Source of the DNA: a virus
Taxonomy: Duplodnaviria > Heunggongvirae > Uroviricota > Caudoviricetes
Reading direction: 5' to 3' (one strand)
Length of the DNA stretch: 10,884 nt
Virus record (IMG/VR): IMGVR_UViG_2695420485_000001
Below, in pieces: positions 311 to 9,561 of this stretch. The notes beneath the pieces were generated by a model. The model searched no databases, had not been told where the DNA came from, and saw only the letters and a program-made list of their open reading frames with translations. Position numbers and translations under genes: made by a program. The stretch's first letter is position 1. The number at the start of each line of letters is the position of its first letter.

Positions 311-345
311 AGGCAAAGAAAACCCGGCGCGGTGGCCGGGTTTAT
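311..345. terminator. Hairpin terminator closing the leftward immunity operon (tIMM position), possibly bidirectional
   Basis: Stem cccggc (323-328) / gccggg (335-340) with a 6-nt loop. On the minus strand it is followed by UUUUCUUUG, on the plus strand by tttatttatt. Lies immediately beyond the stop of the 216-aa minus-strand gene. Confidence 0.6.
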
Positions 346-996
346 TTATTGCTTAGGAGCTTGTTGTGATGACGATTGGTTAGTTGGAGCGCTCGTTAAT
401 GGTTGCTGTGTCGGTACCTGTATTATAATTGGAGCCGGGCTGGTTACTGATGGTGACTTGTCATTGCCGGAGATAATCCAACTTGAGGCTAACATCACGC
501 CAGACAGAATCACAGTAACTAAAGTCAAGCCAACGGCCATCGCCCACTGAGTCGTTGTAAGTCCCGTTTTCAAACCGCCGATTTCACCTTTAATTTCAGC
601 AATACCTCTCTCAATAGAAGAAAATTGCTGAGTATAATAGGTTTTAAAGTCAGCTGATTCGCGACGCATTTCCGCAGCAATAGACTCTACCTCTGATTTG
701 TTTTGTGAAAGCTTTGCGTCAAGTTCTTCTCTGGACATTCCGCTCACGCTTACCTCCAGGGTATCACTCTTCATCGCTACATCTTCCTTACTTGGGCGCA
801 AACCCGTTTCGTCCATGGCGTATGAAACTCTATTTGATACCTTAGCATCAATACCAATACTTTGGTACTGAGATGGATCCCCATAAGGAGAAACGGTTGT
901 CGCTGCTAGGGTTGCACTAACTATAATACTTGGAAGAACTGATGATGTTGTTCCTGAGGTAGGTTGAACTGAAGAAACTGGCTTCAGTCTTTCCAT
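346..996 (-). CDS. Hypothetical membrane-anchored protein, 216 aa: S/T-rich N-terminus, charged coiled-coil-like middle, one predicted TM helix (WAMAVGLTLVTVILSGVMLASSWII), S/P/T/Q-rich tail
   Basis: Long minus-strand ORF in the position of lambda rexB. Its ATG (996..994) overlaps the stop of the upstream 88-aa gene (ATGGAAAGACTGA), indicating translational coupling. AT-rich relative to cI. No family recognised. Confidence 0.75.
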   Translation of the reverse strand: MERLKPVSSVQPTSGTTSSVLPSIIVSATLAATTVSPYGDPSQYQSIGIDAKVSNRVSYAMDETGLRPSKEDVAMKSDTLEVSVSGMSREELDAKLSQNKSEVESIAAEMRRESADFKTYYTQQFSSIERGIAEIKGEIGGLKTGLTTTQWAMAVGLTLVTVILSGVMLASSWIISGNDKSPSVTSPAPIIIQVPTQQPLTSAPTNQSSSQQAPKQ

Positions 997-1250
997 AGCC
1001 CATTATCCCTGAGAGCTACCTGTAATGATTTTACTAATGCAACAGCTTGATCCGGGCTCATTGAGACTGACATGTTAGGGGTCAACTCAACTTTTACTTG
1101 GAAGCTATTCTTTCCTTGCTCATCAGACTGCATGTGATGCTCAAATTCATGGCGGTAAAAAGTAATGATTGTTTCAGCACGATCAGGCGTAATAAGAACT
1201 GATGTGGCGGTCATGTGCTGAGGTATGATTTTAATAGTGTTATCTGACAT
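984..1250 (-). CDS. Hypothetical soluble protein, 88 aa (MSDNTIKIIPQH...GLWKD), His/Glu-rich; the ORF extends to an ATG at 1391 (135 aa) but that start lacks a Shine-Dalgarno
   Basis: Minus-strand ORF. The internal ATG at 1250..1248 is preceded by AAAAAGGA 7-8 nt upstream; the 1391 ATG has no SD. Stop overlaps the start of the 216-aa gene. No homology recognised. Confidence 0.6.
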   Translation of the reverse strand: MSDNTIKIIPQHMTATSVLITPDRAETIITFYRHEFEHHMQSDEQGKNSFQVKVELTPNMSVSMSPDQAVALVKSLQVALRDNGLWKD

Positions 1251-1442
1251 AAGTATCCTTTTTGTTTCCTTAGTATTTTTTTGCATTGACATCAGAAATA
1301 GCGAATCCACAAGAGTATGAGTAAAGCTAATCAGTTTAGTGATACGGTGACTATTAAAGTGGTAAACCACATCAAAGCTCGCAGAGTGCATACCAGGCTG
1401 TCACACATGACAAAGTAACGAGGATGCCTGATCTCATAGCGC

Positions 1443-1598
1443 TCAAAGAGACATGCCGATAATGGCATTAACCACGCATGACGCCATAAACACGCCGCCA
1501 ACGATGAAGCTGGCTTGGTTCTTCCTGGTAGCGCCAAGAGTCAACAGAACCACTGAAAGGGCAAAAAAAGGTATCGCGATTATGCTGAACGTGTTCAT
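1443..1598 (-). CDS. Small hydrophobic protein, 51 aa, two predicted TM helices (MNTFSIIAIPFFALSVVLLTLGATRKNQASFIVGGVFMASCVVNAIIGMSL); not in the supplied ORF track
   Basis: Hand translation of the minus strand: ATG at 1598..1596 preceded by GAGGT with 5-nt spacing, TGA at 1445..1443. Sits between the cI stop and the 88-aa gene, same orientation as the leftward operon. Strongly hydrophobic composition. Confidence 0.45.
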   Translation of the reverse strand: MNTFSIIAIPFFALSVVLLTLGATRKNQASFIVGGVFMASCVVNAIIGMSL

Positions 1599-1675
1599 GT
1601 TGACCTCAACTTATTTCGATTCTCCATCACCCTTAATCCGCCGCCCCATGTGTTTGTTGTGATTCGTTGCTGGCC

Positions 1676-2392
<717 letters not shown>

Positions 2393-2399
2393 TTAAATC

Positions 2400-2465
2400 T
2401 ATCACCGCAAGGGATAAATATCTAACACCGTGCGTGTTGACTATTTTACCTCTAGCGGTGATAAT
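2400..2465. promoter_or_regulatory. OR3-OR2-OR1 operators with divergent promoters PRM (leftward) and PR (rightward)
   Basis: OR3 tatcaccgcaagggata (2400-2416), OR2 taacaccgtgcgtgttg (2423-2439), OR1 tacctctagcggtgata (2447-2463). PR: -35 TTGACT (2437-2442), 17-nt spacer, -10 GATAAT (2460-2465). Confidence 0.9.
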
Positions 2466-2480
2466 GGTTGCATGTACTAA

Positions 2481-2690
<210 letters not shown>

Positions 2691-2697
2691 GTAACAC

Positions 2698-2743
2698 CGC
2701 TATTTTCACAATGGACATTCGTCCTACGTCGCTGACAAAGCGA
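2698..2743 (+). promoter_or_regulatory. nutR: boxA-like CGCTATTTT (2698-2706) and boxB hairpin UCGCUGACAAAGCGA (2729-2743)
   Basis: Located just after the cro stop, as in lambda. boxB is a 5-bp stem with loop GACAA, the same loop as the nutL element at 18-32. Confidence 0.55.
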
Positions 2744-2772
2744 GTCCCAATATATCTGACCAACTAAGGCCA

Positions 2773-2796
2773 TATGCGTTTCCACGCATACCTTTC
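2773..2796 (+). terminator. Candidate tR1 hairpin between nutR and cII
   Basis: Stem tatgcgt (2773-2779) / acgcata (2784-2790), loop ttcc, followed by CCUUUC. The weak U-tract suggests partial or rho-assisted termination. Confidence 0.3.
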
Positions 2797-2828
2797 AACT
2801 AGCTATTCACTATTGGAAATCATAAGAA

Positions 2829-3125
2829 ATGGAACAAACAAGTTACAGCAAACTATCCCAGCGTGACGTTGATCGCGCAGAAACAGATTTACTCATCAAC
2901 CTGTCAACGCTTACCCAGCGCGGTCTGGCAAAGATGATTGGCTGTCATGAATCGAAGATAAGCAGAACGGACTGGAGATTTATTGCTTCAGTCTTGTGTG
3001 CTTTCGGAATGGCATCAGACATCAGTCCGATTAGTAGAGCTTTTAAGTATGCGCTTGATGGAATCACAAAGAAAAAATCCCCGGTGGCCGCCGGGGACTC
3101 TAAGCAAATTGATATGCAATTCTGA
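2829..3125 (+). CDS. cII: CII-like transcriptional activator, 98 aa; lambda cII homolog but divergent
   Basis: Position between cro and O. HTH segment ESKISRTDW parallels lambda DKSQISRWKRDW and the C-terminus KKKSPVAAGDSKQIDMQF parallels lambda NKKRPAATERSEQIQMEF. The tO hairpin lies inside its 3' end, as in lambda. Confidence 0.8.
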   Translation: MEQTSYSKLSQRDVDRAETDLLINLSTLTQRGLAKMIGCHESKISRTDWRFIASVLCAFGMASDISPISRAFKYALDGITKKKSPVAAGDSKQIDMQF

Positions 3126-3147
3126 GGGAATTACTGGATCAATCAAC
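3071..3147 (-). ncRNA. oop: OOP antisense RNA (promoter pO in the 5' end of O, terminator tO inside the cII 3' end), about 77 nt
   Basis: Minus strand has -35 TTGAGT (plus 3178-3183), 18-nt spacer, -10 ATAATG (plus 3154-3159). Terminator hairpin ccccgg...ccgggg (plus 3079-3096) is followed on the minus strand by AUUUUUUC. Predicted length matches lambda OOP. Confidence 0.7.
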
Positions 3148-3157
3148 AGGAGTCATT

Positions 3158-4057
3158 ATGACAAATACAGCAAAAATACTCAACTTCGGCAGAGGTAACT
3201 TTGCCGGACAGGAGCGTAATGTGGCAGATCTCGATGATGGTTACGCCAGACTATCAAATATGCTGCTTGAGGCTTATTCAGGCGCAGATCTGACCAAGCG
3301 ACAGTTTAAAGTGCTGCTTGCCATTCTGCGTAAAACCTATGGGTGGAATAAACCAATGGACAGAATCACCGATTCTCAACTTAGCGAGATTACAAAGTTA
3401 CCTGTCAAACGGTGCAATGAAGCCAAGTTAGAACTCGTCAGAATGAATATTATCAAGCAGCAAGGCGGCATGTTTGGACCAAATAAAAACATCTCAGAAT
3501 GGTGTATCCCTCAAAACGAGGGAAAATCCCCTAAAACGAGGGATAAAACATCCCTCAAATTGGGGGATTGCTATCCCTCAAAACAGGGGGACACAAAAGA
3601 CACTATTACAAAAGAAAAAAGAAAAGATTATTCGTCCGAGAATTCTGGCGAATCCTCTGACCAGCCAGAAAACGATCTTTCTGTGGTTAAACCGGATGCT
3701 GCAATTCAGAGCGGCAGCAAGTGGGGGACAGCAGAAGACCTGACCGCCGCAGAGTGGATGTTTGACATGGTGAAGACTATCGCACCATCAGCCAGAAAAC
3801 CGAATTTTGCTGGGTGGGCTAACGATATCCGCCTGATGCGTGAACGTGACGGACGCAACCATCGCGACATGTGTGTACTGTTCCGCTGGGCATGCCAGGA
3901 CAACTTCTGGTCCGGTAACGTGCTTAGCCCGGCCAAACTCCGCGACAAGTGGACCCAGCTCGAAATCAACCGTAACAAGCAACAGGCAGCCGTGACAGCC
4001 AGCAAACCAAAACTCGACTTGACAAACACAGACTGGATTTACGGGGTGGATCTATGA
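3158..4057 (+). CDS. O: Replication initiator O, 299 aa
   Basis: Near-identical to lambda O as recalled (MTNTAKILNFGRGNFAGQERNVADLDDGYARLSNMLLEAY...DWIYGVDL). Contains the ori iterons internally. Confidence 0.97.
   Translation: MTNTAKILNFGRGNFAGQERNVADLDDGYARLSNMLLEAYSGADLTKRQFKVLLAILRKTYGWNKPMDRITDSQLSEITKLPVKRCNEAKLELVRMNIIKQQGGMFGPNKNISEWCIPQNEGKSPKTRDKTSLKLGDCYPSKQGDTKDTITKEKRKDYSSENSGESSDQPENDLSVVKPDAAIQSGSKWGTAEDLTAAEWMFDMVKTIAPSARKPNFAGWANDIRLMRERDGRNHRDMCVLFRWACQDNFWSGNVLSPAKLRDKWTQLEINRNKQQAAVTASKPKLDLTNTDWIYGVDL
3505..3640. repeat. Replication origin inside O: four ~19-bp iterons plus an adjacent AT-rich region
   Basis: tatccctcaaaacgaggga, aatcccctaaaacgaggga, acatccctcaaattgggggat, tatccctcaaaacaggggga, followed by cacaaaagacactattacaaaagaaaaaagaaaagattatt. 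Confidence 0.9.
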
Positions 4058-4755
4058 AAAACATCGCCGCACAGATGGTTAACTTTGACCGTGAGCAGAT
4101 GCGTCGGATCGCCAACAACATGCCGGAACAGTACGACGAAAAGCCTCAGGTACAGCAGGTAGCGCAGATCATCAACGGTGTGTTCAGCCAGTTACTGGCA
4201 ACTTTCCCGGCGAGCCTGGCTAACCGTGACCAGAACGAACTGAACGAAATCCGCCGCCAGTGGGTTCTGGCTTTCCGGGAAAACGGGATCACCACAATGG
4301 AACAGGTTAACGCAGGAATGCGCGTAGCCCGTCGGCAGAATCGACCATTTCTTCCATCACCCGGGCAGTTTGTTGCATGGTGCCGGGAAGAAGCATCCGT
4401 TATCGCCGGACTGCCAAACGTCAGCGAGCTGGTTGATATGGTTTACGAGTATTGCCGGAAGCGAGGCCTGTATCCGGATGCGGAGTCTTATCCGTGGAAA
4501 TCAAACGCGCACTACTGGCTGGTTACCAACCTGTATCAGAACATGCGGGCCAATGCGCTTACTGATGCGGAATTACGCCGTAAGGCCGCAGATGAGCTTG
4601 TCCATATGACTGCGAGAATTAACCGTGGTGAGGCGATCCCTGAACCAGTAAAACAACTTCCTGTCATGGGCGGTAGACCTCTAAATCGTGTTCAGGCGCT
4701 GGCGAAGATCGCAGAAATTAAAGCTAAGTTCGGACTGAAAGGAGCAAGTCTATGA
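4054..4755 (+). CDS. P: Replication protein P (DnaB helicase loader), 233 aa
   Basis: Near-identical to lambda P as recalled (MKNIAAQMVNFDREQMRRIANNMPEQYDEKPQVQQ...). ATGA overlap with the O stop. Confidence 0.97.
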   Translation: MKNIAAQMVNFDREQMRRIANNMPEQYDEKPQVQQVAQIINGVFSQLLATFPASLANRDQNELNEIRRQWVLAFRENGITTMEQVNAGMRVARRQNRPFLPSPGQFVAWCREEASVIAGLPNVSELVDMVYEYCRKRGLYPDAESYPWKSNAHYWLVTNLYQNMRANALTDAELRRKAADELVHMTARINRGEAIPEPVKQLPVMGGRPLNRVQALAKIAEIKAKFGLKGASL

Positions 4756-5042
4756 CGGGCAAAGAGGCAATTATTCATTATCTGGAGACGCACAAGAGCT
4801 TCTGTGCGCCGGACGTTGCCGCGCTAACAGGCGCAACAGTAACCAGCATAAATCAGGCTGCGGCTAAAATGGCACGGGCAGGTCTTCTGGTTATCGAAGG
4901 TAAGGTCTGGCGAACGGTGTATTACCGGTTTGCTACCAGGGAAGAACGGGAAGGAAAGATGAGCACGAACCTAATTTTTAAGGAGTGTCGCCAGAGTGCC
5001 GCGATGAAACGGGTATTGGCGGTATATGGAGTTAAAAGATGA
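4752..5042 (+). CDS. ren: Ren protein, 96 aa
   Basis: MTGKEAIIHYLETHKSFCAPDVAALTGATVTSINQAAAKMARAG..., near-identical to lambda Ren as recalled. ATGA overlap with the P stop. Confidence 0.93.
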   Translation: MTGKEAIIHYLETHKSFCAPDVAALTGATVTSINQAAAKMARAGLLVIEGKVWRTVYYRFATREEREGKMSTNLIFKECRQSAAMKRVLAVYGVKR

Positions 5043-5066
5043 CCATCTACATCACTGAGCTAATAA

Positions 5067-5097
5067 CAGGCCTGCTGGTAATCGCAGGCCTTTTTAT
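5067..5097 (+). terminator. Rho-independent terminator between ren and ninB (tR2 position)
   Basis: Stem aggcctgc (5068-5075) / gcaggcc (5084-5090), 8-nt loop, then TTTTTATTT. Confidence 0.65.
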
Positions 5098-5115
5098 TTG
5101 GGGGAGAGGGAAGTC

Positions 5116-5556
5116 ATGAAAAAACTAACCTTTGAAATTCGATCTCCAGCACATCAGCAGAACGCTATTCACGCAGTACAGCAAATCCTTCCAGACCCAA
5201 CCAAACCAATCGTAGTAACCATTCAGGAACGCAACCGCAGCTTAGACCAGAATCGAAAGCTTTGGGCTTGCCTTGGTGACGTCTCTCGTCAGGTTGAATG
5301 GCATGGTCGCTGGCTGGATGCAGAAAGCTGGAAGTGTGTGTTTACCGCAGCATTAAAGCAGCAGGATGTTGTTCCTAACCTTGCCGGGAATGGCTTTGTG
5401 GTAATAGGCCAGTCAACCAGCAGGATGCGTGTAAGCGAATTTGCGGAGCTATTAGAGCTTATACAGGCATTCGGTACAGAGCGTGGCGTTAAGTGGTCAG
5501 ACGAAGCGCGACTGGCTCTGGAATGGAAAGCGCGATGGGGAGACAGGGCGGCATGA
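5116..5556 (+). CDS. ninB: NinB (Orf recombination-mediator family), 146 aa
   Basis: [31 protein letters not shown]..., near-identical to lambda NinB as recalled. The track ORF begins at an upstream TTG (5098); the ATG at 5116 follows a GGGAGAGGGAAG Shine-Dalgarno. Confidence 0.93.
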
Positions 5557-5735
5557 GACGACAGCGACGAAGTTTCACCGACATCATCTGCGAAAACTGC
5601 AAATACCTTCCAACGAAACGCTCCAGAAATAAACGCAAGCCAATCCCAAAAGAATCTGACGTAAAAACCTTCAACTACACGGCTCACCTGTGGGATATCC
5701 GGTGGCTAAGACATCGTGCGAGGAAAACAAGGTGA
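5553..5735 (+). CDS. ninE: Small Cys-containing basic nin protein, 60 aa ([60 protein letters not shown]); best fits NinE by size, NinD not excluded
   Basis: ATG at 5553 overlaps the ninB stop (ATGA). The 60-aa length matches lambda NinE rather than NinD (57 aa); the sequence is recalled from memory, not searched. Confidence 0.7.
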
Positions 5736-5765
5736 TTGACGCGATGATTTATTCGGGGCTATATT
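5736..5765 (+). promoter_or_regulatory. Strong sigma70-like promoter: TTGACG, 18-nt spacer, TATATT
   Basis: -35 at 5736-5741 and -10 at 5760-5765, immediately after the ninE stop, directed rightward toward the inserted module. Confidence 0.5.
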
Positions 5766-5771
5766 CCTCAC

Positions 5772-5848
5772 GCGCCAGCAAAATCTGGCGTCGGGATTAG
5801 CACCCCGGATATCGAAACGGTGCATAACCGCGCTGGCGGTTTTTTTAT
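5772..5848 (+). ncRNA. Candidate short terminated leader or sRNA (~75 nt) from the 5736-5765 promoter, ending at an intrinsic terminator
   Basis: Predicted start near 5772. Internal hairpins cgccag/ctggcg and cggg/cccg. Terminator stem aaccgc (5826-5831) / gcggtt (5836-5841) with loop gctg, followed by seven T. No ORF with a Shine-Dalgarno in the interval. Confidence 0.3.
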
Positions 5849-6010
5849 GCGCTAAGCACAGTCACATTCGCGATTTATGGCGGGCTGTGTGGGGGAGCCG
5901 AAAGGCTCGCCGGATGTTTCGACCGGTAGTGCTAACCCCGCACAGTTCGCCACCACGATGATTAGCACCTGACGGTGGCGAGGTAAAAATTATCGAAACG
6001 CGAGGTCATT

Positions 6011-6688
6011 ATGGCTGTTCAAATTTCTGTCGAAAACCTTTCCCCTGTTACCTATAACCAGATCCCCGTAATTACTACTGAACTGTTGGCTCACCTTTAC
6101 GGAACAAAAATCAAAAACATTTCTGATAACTTTCTGAACAACACGACGCGATTCATGCCCGGAAAGCATTACTTTAAAATTGAAAAAAACGAATTACGCG
6201 AGTTTAAGAACAGACCCGAAACAATCGGGTTAGTTGGTAAAAATGCCCGCGCCCTCATCCTCTGGACAGAACGCGGCGCAGCCCGTCACGCAAAAATGCT
6301 CGAAACCGATCAGGCGTGGGAAGTGTTCGAAAAACTGGAAGACTGCTATTTCAGCCAGTGCGAGAAAAATACTGGCAAACAAGAGAAGAAGCCCAACGGG
6401 CTTTCCGCAAAAGAAACAGACAGCCTTGTATGGCTGTGGGATTATGCCAACCGCTCACAGGCATTGTTCCGTGAGTTGTATCCCGCATTAAAACTGATTC
6501 AGTCTGGCTATTCCGGCATATGCTACGACTACGGTCATGAGTTCTCGTATGTTATTGGAATGGCGAGAGACGTTTTAATTAATCACACACGAGATGTTGA
6601 TATCAATGAGCCAGACGGACCAACGAACCTTCTGGCATGGGAAAGGCTTAAGAACAAAGAGTTGCCGCCTTCACTGCATCGCTACTGA
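6011..6688 (+). CDS. ORF6N (KilA-N-related) domain protein, 225 aa, with an unrecognised C-terminal domain
   Basis: N-terminal ~100 aa fit the ORF6N pattern ([33 protein letters not shown]...[34 protein letters not shown]). GAGGT Shine-Dalgarno 6 nt before the ATG. Followed by its own terminator. Confidence 0.7.
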
Positions 6689-9327: not shown

Positions 9328-9402
9328 GGGTCAGTCGTATAAAGGTCATTACGGAAGGCTGTTAACCTTCTTATCGTGGTTCGAGTCCACGCTGTCCCGC
9401 CA
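9328..9402 (+). tRNA. tRNA-like gene, 75 nt, anticodon loop CUGUUAA (GUU, Asn-type); one U-U mismatch in the acceptor stem
   Basis: Manual cloverleaf: acceptor gggtcag/ctgtccc (6 of 7 paired), D-arm gtat-aaaggtca-ttac, anticodon stem gaagg/ccttc, T-arm cgtgg-ttcgagt-ccacg, discriminator G, encoded CCA. Confidence 0.55.
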
Positions 9403-9407
9403 AACAT

Positions 9408-9483
9408 GCTGGTTTAGCTCCAATGGTAGAGCAACTGACTTGTAATCATCAGGTCGCCAGTTCGATTCCGGTAGCCGGCACCA
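9408..9483 (+). tRNA. tRNA-Thr-like gene, 76 nt, anticodon UGU (loop CUUGUAA); weakened anticodon stem and one T-stem mismatch
   Basis: Resembles E. coli tRNA-Thr(UGU) as recalled (GAGCAACTGACTTGTAATCA...AGGTC...CCAGTTCGATTCCGGTAG...CACCA). Acceptor gctggtt/agccggc includes two G-U pairs. Only 3 of 5 anticodon-stem pairs form (tcatc instead of tcagt). Confidence 0.6.
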
Positions 9484-9486
9484 TAT

Positions 9487-9561
9487 GCGGGTACCGTATA
9501 ATGGCTATTACCTCAGCCTTCCAGTCTGATGATGCGGGTTCGATTCCCGCTACCCGCTCCA
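9487..9561 (+). tRNA. tRNA-like gene, 75 nt, anticodon loop CUUCCAG (UCC, Gly-type by manual fold); C at position 8 and a C-U mismatch closing the anticodon stem
   Basis: Perfect 7-bp acceptor gcgggta/tacccgc, D-arm gtat-aatggcta-ttac (same architecture as the first tRNA-like gene), T-arm gcggg-ttcgatt-cccgc, encoded CCA. Confidence 0.5.

What the first reader, a model, noticed from the sequence alone, without database searches (positions are those of the whole stretch)
1443..1598. Unannotated 51-aa two-TM peptide between cI and the cassette
The supplied ORF track misses this minus-strand gene because it is below the length cut-off. It has a GAGGT Shine-Dalgarno at 5-nt spacing, an ATG start, and two hydrophobic stretches separated by TRKNQ. 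Small membrane peptides of this kind often act as toxins, holin-like effectors or regulators of membrane partners. The track instead offers two overlapping ORFs here (1331-1537 minus, 1453-1662 plus) without ribosome-binding sites.
Basis: seen in the sequence. Interest (0 to 1): 0.5.

Follow-up and report, generated by a model that had tools for sequence, protein, structure and literature searches.

The report
Overlooked small membrane gene after cI
The 51-codon reading frame just downstream of the prophage repressor gene is a real, conserved gene for a tiny two-helix membrane protein, missed in the reference phage HK97 annotation; it travels with prophage repressor genes, but what it does is still unknown.

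Summary
Window 1443-1598 (minus) is a 51-codon ATG ORF with a GAGGT Shine-Dalgarno and two hydrophobic helices joined by TRKNQ.

It is a real gene:
- The frame is open in all 32 distinct homologous coding sequences.
- dN/dS against the window is 0.05-0.13 in the 13 comparisons where dS could be estimated.
- Similarity to chromosomal homologues begins at the ATG and ends at the stop.

The window is an HK97-type immunity region reading cI, this gene, gp49, gp48, terminator. The gene is missing from the HK97 and HK225 records. RefSeq calls it (WP_001091427.1, hypothetical) in only a few of about 53 E. coli genomes.

The family is small, Enterobacteriaceae-restricted, always 48-57 aa, and absent from Pfam, NCBIfam, PHROGs, PADLOC and PDB. 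Chromosomal copies sit in stable non-prophage positions.

Prophage copies form a ~160-290 bp mini-module directly behind four repressor types. They sit 10-15 nt behind two of those types. Ahead of them are at least seven different cargo sets, several matching defence systems.

The 77-nt spacer in the window is a scar of a Rac-type repressor's 3' end.

Function is inferred only. It is probably a lysogen-expressed inner-membrane hairpin acting on a host membrane target, perhaps in superinfection exclusion. Holin and type I toxin readings are disfavoured.

The parts
1443..1598 (-). Coding sequence of the 51-aa two-helix membrane peptide ('pep51')
   Evidence: ORF. (homologues, length conserved). 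(purifying selection, frame open in 32/32). (helical hairpin, pLDDT 87).
1603..1607 (-). Shine-Dalgarno GAGGT, 4 nt before the ATG
   Evidence: An SD-like purine motif at the same place in 28 of 32 homologous loci, although the surrounding upstream sequence is not conserved.
1611..1649 (-). Recombination scar: the last 12 codons plus stop of a Rac-type (HTH_3) prophage repressor gene (MGRRIKGDGESK*). It is followed by the same 12-nt gap (1599-1610) that separates that repressor from pep51 in other prophages.
   Evidence: sequence; homology to L033/L058/L059/L041/L060 starts at -53/-51 relative to the ATG, inside their repressor genes.
1676..2389 (-). cI repressor (lambda/HK97 type, HTH_3 + Peptidase_S24), the upstream gene of the operon
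1360..1442 (-). ~83 nt after the stop codon that remain joined to pep51 in some other prophages (L030, L058) with different cargo. Role unknown; no significant RNA structure.
984..1250 (-). gp49 (88 aa, phrog_26809, unknown function), downstream cargo gene 1
346..996 (-). gp48 (216 aa, phrog_5820, C-terminal membrane anchor), downstream cargo gene 2
315..343 (-). GC-rich hairpin followed by TTTTCTTT just after the gp48 stop: the likely intrinsic terminator that ends the cI-pep51-gp49-gp48 transcript
   Evidence: sequence. One search detected the same hairpin on the + strand. For the minus strand this is my reading of the sequence.

Best explanation
Shown: 1443-1598(-) is a real gene under purifying selection. 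It encodes a 51-aa helical hairpin with two transmembrane helices and a short basic loop.

Inferred: by the positive-inside rule the loop faces the cytoplasm and both ends face the periplasm.

Shown: the gene lies between the repressor gene and variable cargo. The consensus scans found no sigma-70 promoter on its strand and only one weak terminator-like hairpin, inside its own 3' end (1468-1453). In its native setting it starts 10-15 nt after the repressor's stop codon.

Inferred: it is therefore made in the lysogen from the repressor (PRM/PRE) transcript, as rexA/rexB are in lambda.

Shown: the phage copy keeps all the residues that are conserved in vertically inherited chromosomal homologues of other Enterobacteriaceae (T3, F4, I6, P10, V33, G34/G35, A39, N44, G48). 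Only the ORF was captured. It moves as a ~160-290 bp mini-module, independently of both repressor type and cargo.

Inferred mechanism: the hairpin inserts in the inner membrane. It uses the small-residue/Asn face of helix 2 to bind, or oligomerise against, a conserved host inner-membrane protein without killing the cell.

Inferred benefit: the most likely gain to the lysogen is exclusion of superinfecting phage at the membrane or DNA-entry step. This rests on precedent for this genomic slot and on the defence cargo next to it.
For: Gene reality.

Hairpin structure.

Operon position:
- One search found no sigma-70 promoter consensus on the minus strand in 200-2600.
- One search's only minus-strand terminator-like site between cI and gp49 is a weak 5-bp hairpin inside the ORF.
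- One search shows a terminator hairpin after gp48.
- Searches found no significant RNA structure in the spacers.
- Gaps of 10-15 nt behind Rac-type and 246-aa S24 repressors.

Modularity:
- Four repressor clusters and at least seven cargo sets.
- Homology blocks bounded at -1..-53 and +155..+238.
- Repressor scar.

Slot is a defence hot spot: cargo behind pep51 matches PD-Lambda-2_B, PD-T4-9_C, PDC-M66A/B, PDC-M63A and HigB.

Precedent in the same phage: HK97 gp15 is a small inner-membrane, prophage-expressed protein with non-prophage enterobacterial homologues (YebO). It blocks DNA entry (PMC3594210).

From my own knowledge: rexAB, HK022 nun, 933W stk and BTP1 bstA are further repressor-adjacent exclusion genes. 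This is not a tool result.
Against: - There is no expression or phenotype data of any kind.
- Chromosomal homologues sit among ordinary metabolic and regulatory genes (frmRA, cytochrome b561, formate dehydrogenase, patD-ydcSTUV, GGDEF). They are syntenic within genera, not in defence islands.
- The phage copy shows no sign of neofunctionalisation. This fits a housekeeping or stress role at least as well as an anti-phage role.
- PADLOC has no model for it.
- Lambda-cI and Rac-type prophages without it exist, so it is dispensable for lysogeny.
- PGAP usually does not call it.
Confidence: 0.35

Rival explanations
1. Lysogenic-conversion gene with a host-physiology role. The phage supplies E. coli with a small membrane protein that other Enterobacteriaceae encode chromosomally. 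It modulates a transporter, sensor or respiratory complex, or envelope stress tolerance, in the manner of AcrZ, MgtS, KdpF, CydX or MgrB. It has no direct anti-phage role.
For: Chromosomal copies are vertically inherited in syntenic, non-defence contexts in Atlantibacter, the Klebsiella oxytoca complex and Superficieibacter; Lelliottia also carries it in a non-defence chromosomal context. Family-conserved residues are all retained in the phage copy. E. coli has no chromosomal copy, only the prophage one, in 53/5426 genomes. The protein has no extramembrane domain, which is typical of small proteins that act through TM-TM contacts (my own knowledge).
Against: No conserved neighbouring partner gene across genera. 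No shared regulatory motif upstream. In prophages it sits in the classic exclusion/defence slot, beside defence cargo.
Confidence: 0.3
2. Membrane-damaging effector. It would be either a GhoT/OrtT-like or type I-like toxin, or the pore-forming executioner of an abortive-infection response, RexB-like in role. In that case it is kept harmless in the lysogen and triggered on infection.
For: Its size and two-TM hairpin resemble GhoT/OrtT-type peptides. In Raoultella the homologue lies in a stretch rich in small toxin genes (GhoT/OrtT, GnsAB). An invariant Asn and Gly-rich helix 2 could drive oligomerisation. The position corresponds to that of rexB in lambda.
Against: It is constitutively placed on the repressor transcript with a good SD and no antitoxin, antisense RNA or structured leader. 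Only the ORF, not any flanking regulator, is shared with chromosomal copies. There is no sequence relation to RexB (hhalign probability 1.2%). There is no PF10753 (GhoT/OrtT) hit. The cargo systems beside it are defined elsewhere without it.
Confidence: 0.12
3. Third component of the gp49/gp48 cassette: a three-gene membrane system that replaces RexAB.
For: In HK97, HK225, PDP110P1 and most E. coli prophage loci the three genes are contiguous and nearly identical. gp48 is itself membrane-anchored.
Against: The peptide gene occurs with ParA-like, ClpP-like protease, HigB/PD-Lambda-2, PDC-M66 and PDC-M63 cargo instead of gp49/gp48. A gp49/gp48-like pair follows cI directly without it in Klebsiella phage ST15-VIM1phi2.1. 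Homology breakpoints fall between the peptide gene and gp49.
Confidence: 0.08
4. Not a gene. It would be either a chance ORF or conservation that belongs to the plus-strand ORF (1453-1662, annotated as gp45 in HK225) or to a non-coding element.
For: The antisense frame is open in 24 of 32 homologues and has the second-lowest pN/pS, 0.42. PGAP omits the peptide gene in most genomes.
Against: The sense frame is open in 32/32. It has the lowest pN/pS and a clear third-position variability pattern. Start, stop and length are conserved down to 47% identity, and an SD is present in 28/32. Similarity ends at the ORF borders, while ORF 1453-1662 extends 64 nt beyond them. There is no Rfam hit and no significant fold. 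An open antisense frame is expected opposite codons for hydrophobic residues (my own knowledge).
Confidence: 0.02

Closest known systems
HK97 gp15 (YebO-related moron; superinfection exclusion protein)
   Same: It is a small prophage-expressed inner-membrane protein of the same phage. Its homologues are mostly non-prophage chromosomal genes confined to Enterobacteriaceae, so it was captured from a host chromosome (PMC3594210). It is the best model for what the 51-aa peptide may do.
   Different: No sequence relation (hhalign probability 0.1%). gp15 is 62 aa; from its sequence I read one N-terminal hydrophobic helix and a charged tail. It lies in the tail operon, with a putative terminator annotated just downstream. 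Its C-terminus has diverged from YebO. The 51-aa peptide is a two-helix hairpin with no tail, rides on the repressor transcript, and has not diverged from its chromosomal relatives.
Lambda RexB (with RexA), the cI-operon exclusion system
   Same: It occupies the same genomic slot: a membrane protein encoded downstream of cI, between cI and the leftward operator region. It is expressed in lysogens (my own knowledge).
   Different: RexB is 144 aa with four TM helices (helix count from my own knowledge) and works with RexA. There is no similarity (probability 1.2%), and no RexA homologue in the window: gp49 and gp48 have no Rex domains.
Phage 434 Hex; HK022 Nun; 933W Stk; BTP1 BstA (genes co-expressed with or adjacent to the prophage repressor)
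   Same: They show the same operon logic: an accessory gene placed directly behind the repressor gene so that it is made in the lysogen. The Hex abstract is (PMC3564112) and the BstA abstract (PMC8585504). The other two are from my own knowledge.
   Different: All are soluble or much larger proteins with unrelated sequences and known different mechanisms. None is a 51-aa membrane hairpin.
GhoT/OrtT and type I membrane toxins; class II holins/pinholins
   Same: They are very small hydrophobic peptides. GhoT/OrtT and class II holins also have two TM helices.
   Different: No Pfam match to PF10753 or any toxin or holin family. There is no antitoxin or antisense partner and no lysis-cassette context. 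There is no charged C-terminal tail or dual start.
Small membrane-protein regulators of E. coli (AcrZ, MgtS, KdpF, CydX, MgrB, PmrR)
   Same: They are under 60 aa and almost entirely transmembrane. They act by binding larger membrane proteins. The chromosomal homologues of the peptide look like this class.
   Different: No sequence relation was detected. No partner is known, and no adjacent partner gene is conserved. Most of those proteins have a single TM helix.

Membership tests
Genuine protein-coding gene | Reading frame intact, with conserved start, stop and length across diverged homologues | tested here: met
   0 stops in 32/32 distinct coding sequences. Homologues are 48-57 aa throughout and nearly all 51.
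Genuine protein-coding gene | Purifying selection specific to this frame | tested here: met
   dN/dS is 0.05-0.13 in the 13 of 21 comparisons with the window where dS was not saturated. Entropy by codon position is 0.66/0.42/1.40. Median pN/pS is 0.25 in this frame against 0.42-2.2 in the other five.
Genuine protein-coding gene | Translation initiation signal | tested here: met
   GAGGT lies 4 nt before the ATG. An SD-like motif is present in 28/32 homologues although the upstream sequence is otherwise unrelated.
Genuine protein-coding gene | Direct evidence of translation | not testable with these tools
   No ribosome-profiling or proteomic data available. Literature searches found nothing.
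Moron (Hendrix/Juhala sense) | Extra gene present or absent between conserved neighbours in related phages | tested here: met
   Lambda, HK106 and mEp234 share the cI 3' end but lack the gene. Related Rac-type repressors lack it in 29 E. coli genomes.
Moron (Hendrix/Juhala sense) | Own promoter and terminator (independent transcription unit) | tested here: not met
   No sigma-70 consensus on the minus strand in 200-2600. The only terminator-like site is a weak 5-bp hairpin inside the ORF. The gene starts 10-15 nt after the repressor stop in its native setting. A consensus scan cannot exclude a weak promoter.
Lambda RexB family | Sequence or profile similarity; four TM helices; RexA partner | tested here: not met
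   hhalign probability 1.2%. Two helices only. No Rex domains in neighbouring genes.
HK97 gp15 / YebO family | Sequence or profile similarity | tested here: not met
   hhalign probability 0.1%.
Superinfection-exclusion proteins (functional class) | Prophage-expressed, membrane-located | tested here: inconclusive
   Operon position and hairpin prediction fit. Expression and localisation are not measured.
Superinfection-exclusion proteins (functional class) | Blocks infection or DNA entry of other phages | not testable with these tools
   Needs plating and DNA-entry assays.
Type I / GhoT-OrtT membrane toxins | Family HMM match, or a cognate antisense RNA or antitoxin that travels with the gene | tested here: not met
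   No PF10753 or other toxin family hit. No Rfam hit in 1200-1720. Only the ORF is shared between phage and chromosomal copies.
Type I / GhoT-OrtT membrane toxins | Toxicity on expression | not testable with these tools
   Needs controlled expression.
Holins (class II / pinholin) | Located in the lysis cassette next to an endolysin; charged cytoplasmic C-terminal tail; late expression | tested here: not met
   It lies in the leftward immunity operon between cI and gp49. The protein ends ...IGMSL and has no D/E; its only K/R are in the loop.
Known anti-phage defence systems (PADLOC) | Match to a defence-system protein model | tested here: not met
   0 families for the peptide, gp49 and gp48. 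Cargo in sister prophages does match.
Any curated protein family (Pfam, NCBIfam, PHROGs) or solved structure | Score above the family threshold | tested here: not met
   Best Pfam hit is 16.6 bits against a cut-off of 27, and hits are inconsistent among members. NCBIfam and PHROGs give nothing significant. No PDB match at E<=1.

The most novel reading that the evidence does not exclude
The peptide founds an unrecognised family of repressor-coupled membrane proteins. In this reading it is a constant second gene of the immunity operon in Rac-type and other lambdoid prophages, placed 10-15 nt behind the repressor. It provides superinfection exclusion, or another membrane-level protection of the lysogen, while the defence cargo behind it is swapped freely. 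HK97, a model phage, would then have carried an unannotated immunity-operon gene with a phenotype since its genome was published in 2000.
Probability: 0.3. Interest if true: 0.6.

Novelty: new member of a known kind. Interest (0 to 1): 0.4.

Why it matters
HK97 is a reference phage, and its immunity region is used as a textbook comparison with lambda. A conserved, selected gene between cI and gp49 is missing from its record, and the HK225 record has it on the wrong strand. PGAP skips it in most E. coli genomes that carry it.

The comparative picture gives a concrete, cheap target for genetics, comparable to gp15. The peptide gene is a tiny independent module that stays attached to the 3' end of four different repressor genes while the defence cargo behind it is exchanged. 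It also marks the left border of a defence hot spot in Rac-type prophages.

The nested repressor scars add a clear example of how immunity modules are reshuffled.

If the peptide turns out to exclude phages or to regulate a host membrane protein, that would define a new small-protein family. If it has no phenotype, the result is only an annotation fix.

Tried and rejected
**Family and structure searches that found nothing**
- Pfam, NCBIfam, PHROGs and PADLOC scans of the peptide gave only sub-threshold, mutually inconsistent TM-region hits. Pfam on 16 diverse members was the same.
- A PDB profile search found nothing at E<=1.
- A profile search of 1.84 billion representatives found only 18 small standalone proteins of 36-57 aa; the 15 aligned full-length ones are 48-57 aa. 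There were no fusions to larger domains that could hint at function.
- I did not run a fold search on the 51-aa hairpin model, because a two-helix hairpin would match non-specifically.

**RNA and regulatory checks**
- Rfam on 1200-1720 at E<=1 gave nothing.
- RNA folding of the two spacers gave z-scores of -0.1 and +1.1, so there is no structured leader, attenuator or terminator.
- I looked for LexA, sigma-54, sigma-E, CpxR, PhoP and Fur motifs upstream of 23 mostly chromosomal homologues. Nothing was shared; there was one isolated LexA-like palindrome, in L009.

**Searches in other collections**
- tblastn found no copy on plasmids.
- Only HK97, HK225 and PDP110P1 among 50,697 phage records carry it.

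**Literature**
- Searches for HK97 gp48/gp49, rex-slot descriptions, WP_001091427 and repressor-adjacent hot spots found no mention of this ORF.
- The primary gp15 paper (PMC3430355) is not held.

**Considered and rejected**
- Membership in RexB or gp15/YebO.
- Three-gene system with gp49/gp48.
- Holin.
- Plus-strand ORF as the real gene.

Full report
**1. What is in the window**

The window is a lambdoid immunity and early region. On the minus strand it reads as follows:
- cI, lambda/HK97 type, 1676-2389
- the 51-codon ORF, 1443-1598
- gp49, 984-1250
- gp48, 346-996

On the plus strand, cro, cII, O and P follow.

Positions 1300-1700 are 99.8-100% identical to HK97, HK225 and Lambdavirus PDP110P1. 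The ORF begins with ATG at 1598 and ends with TGA at 1443-1445. It is preceded by GAGGT (1607-1603) and 4 nt.

The product is MNTFSIIAIPFFALSVVLLTLGATRKNQASFIVGGVFMASCVVNAIIGMSL. It has a GRAVY of 1.42, with two basic residues in the loop and no acidic ones. AlphaFold predicts two helices, 3-25 and 28-50, with mean pLDDT 87.

**2. Is it a gene?**

- A database search found 34 proteins at 67-98% identity, nearly all exactly 51 aa. They come from Atlantibacter, Klebsiella, Raoultella, Kosakonia, Lelliottia and Enterobacter.
- A genome scan added loci down to 47% identity in Pantoea and Erwinia.
- In 32 distinct coding sequences the frame has no stop. An SD-like motif precedes the start in 28, although the rest of the upstream sequence is unrelated between genera.
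- Variability is concentrated at third codon positions (entropy 0.66/0.42/1.40).
- dN/dS against the window is 0.05-0.13 in the 13 of 21 comparisons where synonymous sites were not saturated.
- Among the closely related prophage copies, pS is 0.06-0.32 with pN 0-0.05.
- Of the six frames, this one has the lowest pN/pS (0.25).
- The antisense frame gives the track's ORF 1453-1662, which is HK225 'gp45'. It scores 0.42 and is interrupted in 8 of 32 sequences.
- Nucleotide similarity between the window and chromosomal homologues runs from -9/0 to +151/+153 relative to the ATG. That is exactly the ORF.
- There is no Rfam family and no significant RNA fold here.

I conclude that this is a protein-coding gene. 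I call it pep51 below.

**3. Annotation status**

- The HK97 records leave 27814-28238 empty.
- HK225 annotates two plus-strand ORFs instead, one flagged 'poor ribosome-binding site'.
- In complete E. coli genomes the sequence is present in 53 of 5426. PGAP calls it (WP_001091427.1, hypothetical protein) in only a few of them.
- The exact protein is nevertheless in public collections on 772 contigs as 'hypothetical' or 'uncharacterized'. Variants above 90% identity are named from Citrobacter koseri, C. portucalensis, Enterobacter hormaechei and Shigella.

**4. The family**

A profile search of 1.84 billion representative proteins found 18 clusters. Their representatives are 36-57 aa, and the 15 aligned full-length ones are 48-57 aa. 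All are standalone.

These divergent members keep:
- the N-terminal MSTFxIIAIPFF motif
- a basic loop, with K26 nearly invariant
- a glycine and small-residue-rich second helix, with G34 invariant, G48 nearly invariant and N44 retained in most

No Pfam, NCBIfam, PHROG, PADLOC or PDB entry covers the family.

**5. Two kinds of genomic context**

*(a) Chromosomal.* The gene lies among ordinary genes, and the context is syntenic within a genus but different between genera:
- Klebsiella oxytoca complex: frmA, frmR, cytochrome b561, a DinI-like gene, then pep51.
- Atlantibacter: DUF4142, DUF1349, an Hsp20-like gene, then pep51.
- Lelliottia: RIO1 kinase, pep51, YceI.
- Raoultella: a stretch of small genes (GhoT/OrtT, YncL, GnsAB, DUF6500) next to patD-ydcVUTS.

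This looks like vertical inheritance of a host small-protein gene.

*(b) Prophage.* Copies of 90-100% identity always lie directly downstream of the prophage repressor gene. Four unrelated or distantly related repressor clusters are involved:
- lambda cI
- the HK225 type
- a 246-250-aa S24 type
- a Rac-type HTH_3 repressor opposite ydaS/ydaT

Behind the last two the gap is only 10-15 nt.

The genes after pep51 differ:
- gp49/gp48
- a 98 + 269/275-aa pair, whose larger member looks like a gp48 analogue in the translations (my reading; not aligned)
- a ParA-like ATPase
- a ClpP/SDH-like protease
- HigB + PD-Lambda-2_B + a PD-T4-9_C-like protein
- HipA_2 + DUF3037 (PDC-M66A/B)
- DUF6932 (PDC-M63A) + a 309-aa protein

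Conversely, a gp49/gp48-like pair follows cI directly, without pep51, in Klebsiella phage ST15-VIM1phi2.1. Lambda-cI and Rac-type repressors also occur without pep51.

pep51 is therefore an independent unit. It is not part of 'the cassette'.

**6. Module borders and scars**

Relative to the ATG, the block shared between the window and prophages with other cargo is:
- -1..+160 (L064)
- -4..+238 (L030)
- -53..+155 (L059)
- -51..+167 (L033)

In the window, 1649-1611 reads atg ggg cgg cgg att aag ggt gat gga gaa tcg aaa taa, which translates as MGRRIKGDGESK*. That is the C-terminal end of the Rac-type repressor. It is followed by the same 12 nt (gttgaggtcaac) that separate that repressor from pep51 elsewhere.

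The 77-nt 'intergenic' spacer is thus a recombination scar. The pep51-gp49-gp48 block once sat behind a Rac-type repressor and was joined to lambda-type cI within the last ~50 nt of the old repressor gene. HK225 keeps, in addition, 25 nt of the lambda-cI 3' end in front of that scar, so the scars are nested.

**7. Expression logic**

This section is inferred. The scan found no sigma-70 consensus on the minus strand between 200 and 2600. Its only terminator-like site there is a weak 5-bp hairpin inside the ORF.

A GC-rich hairpin followed by TTTTCTTT lies just after the gp48 stop, at ~343-315.

The simplest reading is one transcript from PRM/PRE covering cI, pep51, gp49 and gp48. That matches lambda cI-rexA-rexB. 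The close spacing in the native arrangement permits coupled translation.

**8. Mechanism**

*Shown:* a hairpin of two hydrophobic helices with a basic loop and no soluble domain. There are conserved small and polar residues on helix 2. The family is conserved in host chromosomes. The phage copy is unchanged at the conserved positions.

*Inferred:* insertion in the inner membrane with the loop in the cytoplasm, and action through helix-helix contacts with a conserved host membrane protein or with itself.

*For an exclusion role:*
- the slot
- the neighbouring defence cargo
- the HK97 gp15 precedent: a small inner-membrane protein with chromosomal enterobacterial relatives that blocks DNA entry

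*Against an exclusion role:*
- the chromosomal copies are not in defence islands
- there is no sign that the phage copy has changed function

This is why I give exclusion only about 0.35 and a host-physiology role about 0.30.

*Toxin or abortive-infection effector (about 0.12).* This is disfavoured by unregulated placement on the repressor transcript, the lack of any partner RNA or protein, and the absence of family matches.

*Holin.* This is excluded by context and by the lack of a charged tail.

*Membership in other families.* RexB and gp15/YebO were both tested and failed.

**9. Verdict**

The finding is real and correctly described. It is best classed as a new, uncharacterised member of the known class of lysogen-expressed small membrane proteins carried by prophages.

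Its interest is moderate. It is an annotation gap in a model phage, with an unusually clean comparative signature: a mini-module tied to repressor 3' ends, with nested scars, at the border of a defence hot spot. There is no functional evidence yet.

Noticed in passing
window 1611-1649 (minus), with 1599-1610: The cI-pep51 spacer contains the last 12 codons and stop of a Rac-type HTH repressor gene (MGRRIKGDGESK*), plus the native 12-nt gap. This is a recombination scar showing that the block was moved from behind a different repressor. HK225 (L002) additionally retains 25 nt of the lambda-cI 3' end upstream of it, so the scars are nested.
   Followed up: yes
L030, L033, L059, L063, L064, L066-L069 (about 4150-6500 in each): The position just after pep51 in Rac-type and related prophages is a hot spot of exchangeable cargo. 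Cargo includes HigB + PD-Lambda-2_B + PD-T4-9_C-like, HipA_2 + DUF3037 (PDC-M66A/B), DUF6932 (PDC-M63A) + a 309-aa protein, a ParA-like ATPase, a ClpP/SDH-like protease, and a 98 + 269/275-aa pair whose larger member resembles gp48.
   Followed up: partly
L030 and L064, about 4160-4300: Downstream of pep51 these loci carry a further relic of a Rac-type repressor 3' end (...LKELDELYAKFMGRRIKGDGE*). This indicates repeated rearrangement around the mini-module.
   Followed up: no
window 315-343: A GC-rich palindrome (AAACCCGGC...GCCGGGTTT) lies right after the gp48 stop. It is followed by T-runs in both directions: a likely bidirectional intrinsic terminator closing the immunity operon.
   Followed up: partly
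window 984-1391 (minus): The gp49 start is ambiguous. HK97 annotates 88 aa (start 1250, AAGGA SD) and HK225 annotates 102 aa. The longest ORF is 135 aa from ATG 1391. The PHROG profile has 12 extra N-terminal positions.
   Followed up: no
L002 (HK225) 3018-3119 and 3163-3363, = window ~1317-1418 and 1462-1662, plus strand: HK225 gp44 ('poor ribosome-binding site') and gp45 are annotated on the strand opposite pep51. gp45 is the antisense frame of pep51 and is probably a spurious call.
   Followed up: partly
window 5759-5957 (+): Rfam gathering-score matches to the c4-a1b1 target, isrK and C4 antisense RNA. This is an antisense-RNA (C4/isrK-type) regulatory element between the replication and nin regions.
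   Followed up: no
window 9328-9558 (+): Three tandem tRNA genes (Rfam RF00005, 49-55 bits) lie in the late-regulatory part of the window.
   Followed up: no
L035 (Raoultella planticola) 1196-4156: The chromosomal homologue overlaps the stop of a DUF6500 gene (ATGA). It lies in a cluster of very small genes (GhoT/OrtT, YncL, KPN01023, GnsAB) beside patD-ydcVUTS, a region that seems to accumulate small membrane and toxin peptides.
   Followed up: no
L062 (IMG/VR contig) 4001-4153: A 75%-identical copy lies in a phage-like region between a UmuD-like gene and a tail-fibre/terminase block, not behind a repressor. The repressor linkage is therefore not universal outside the E. coli/Citrobacter lambdoid prophages.
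   Followed up: no
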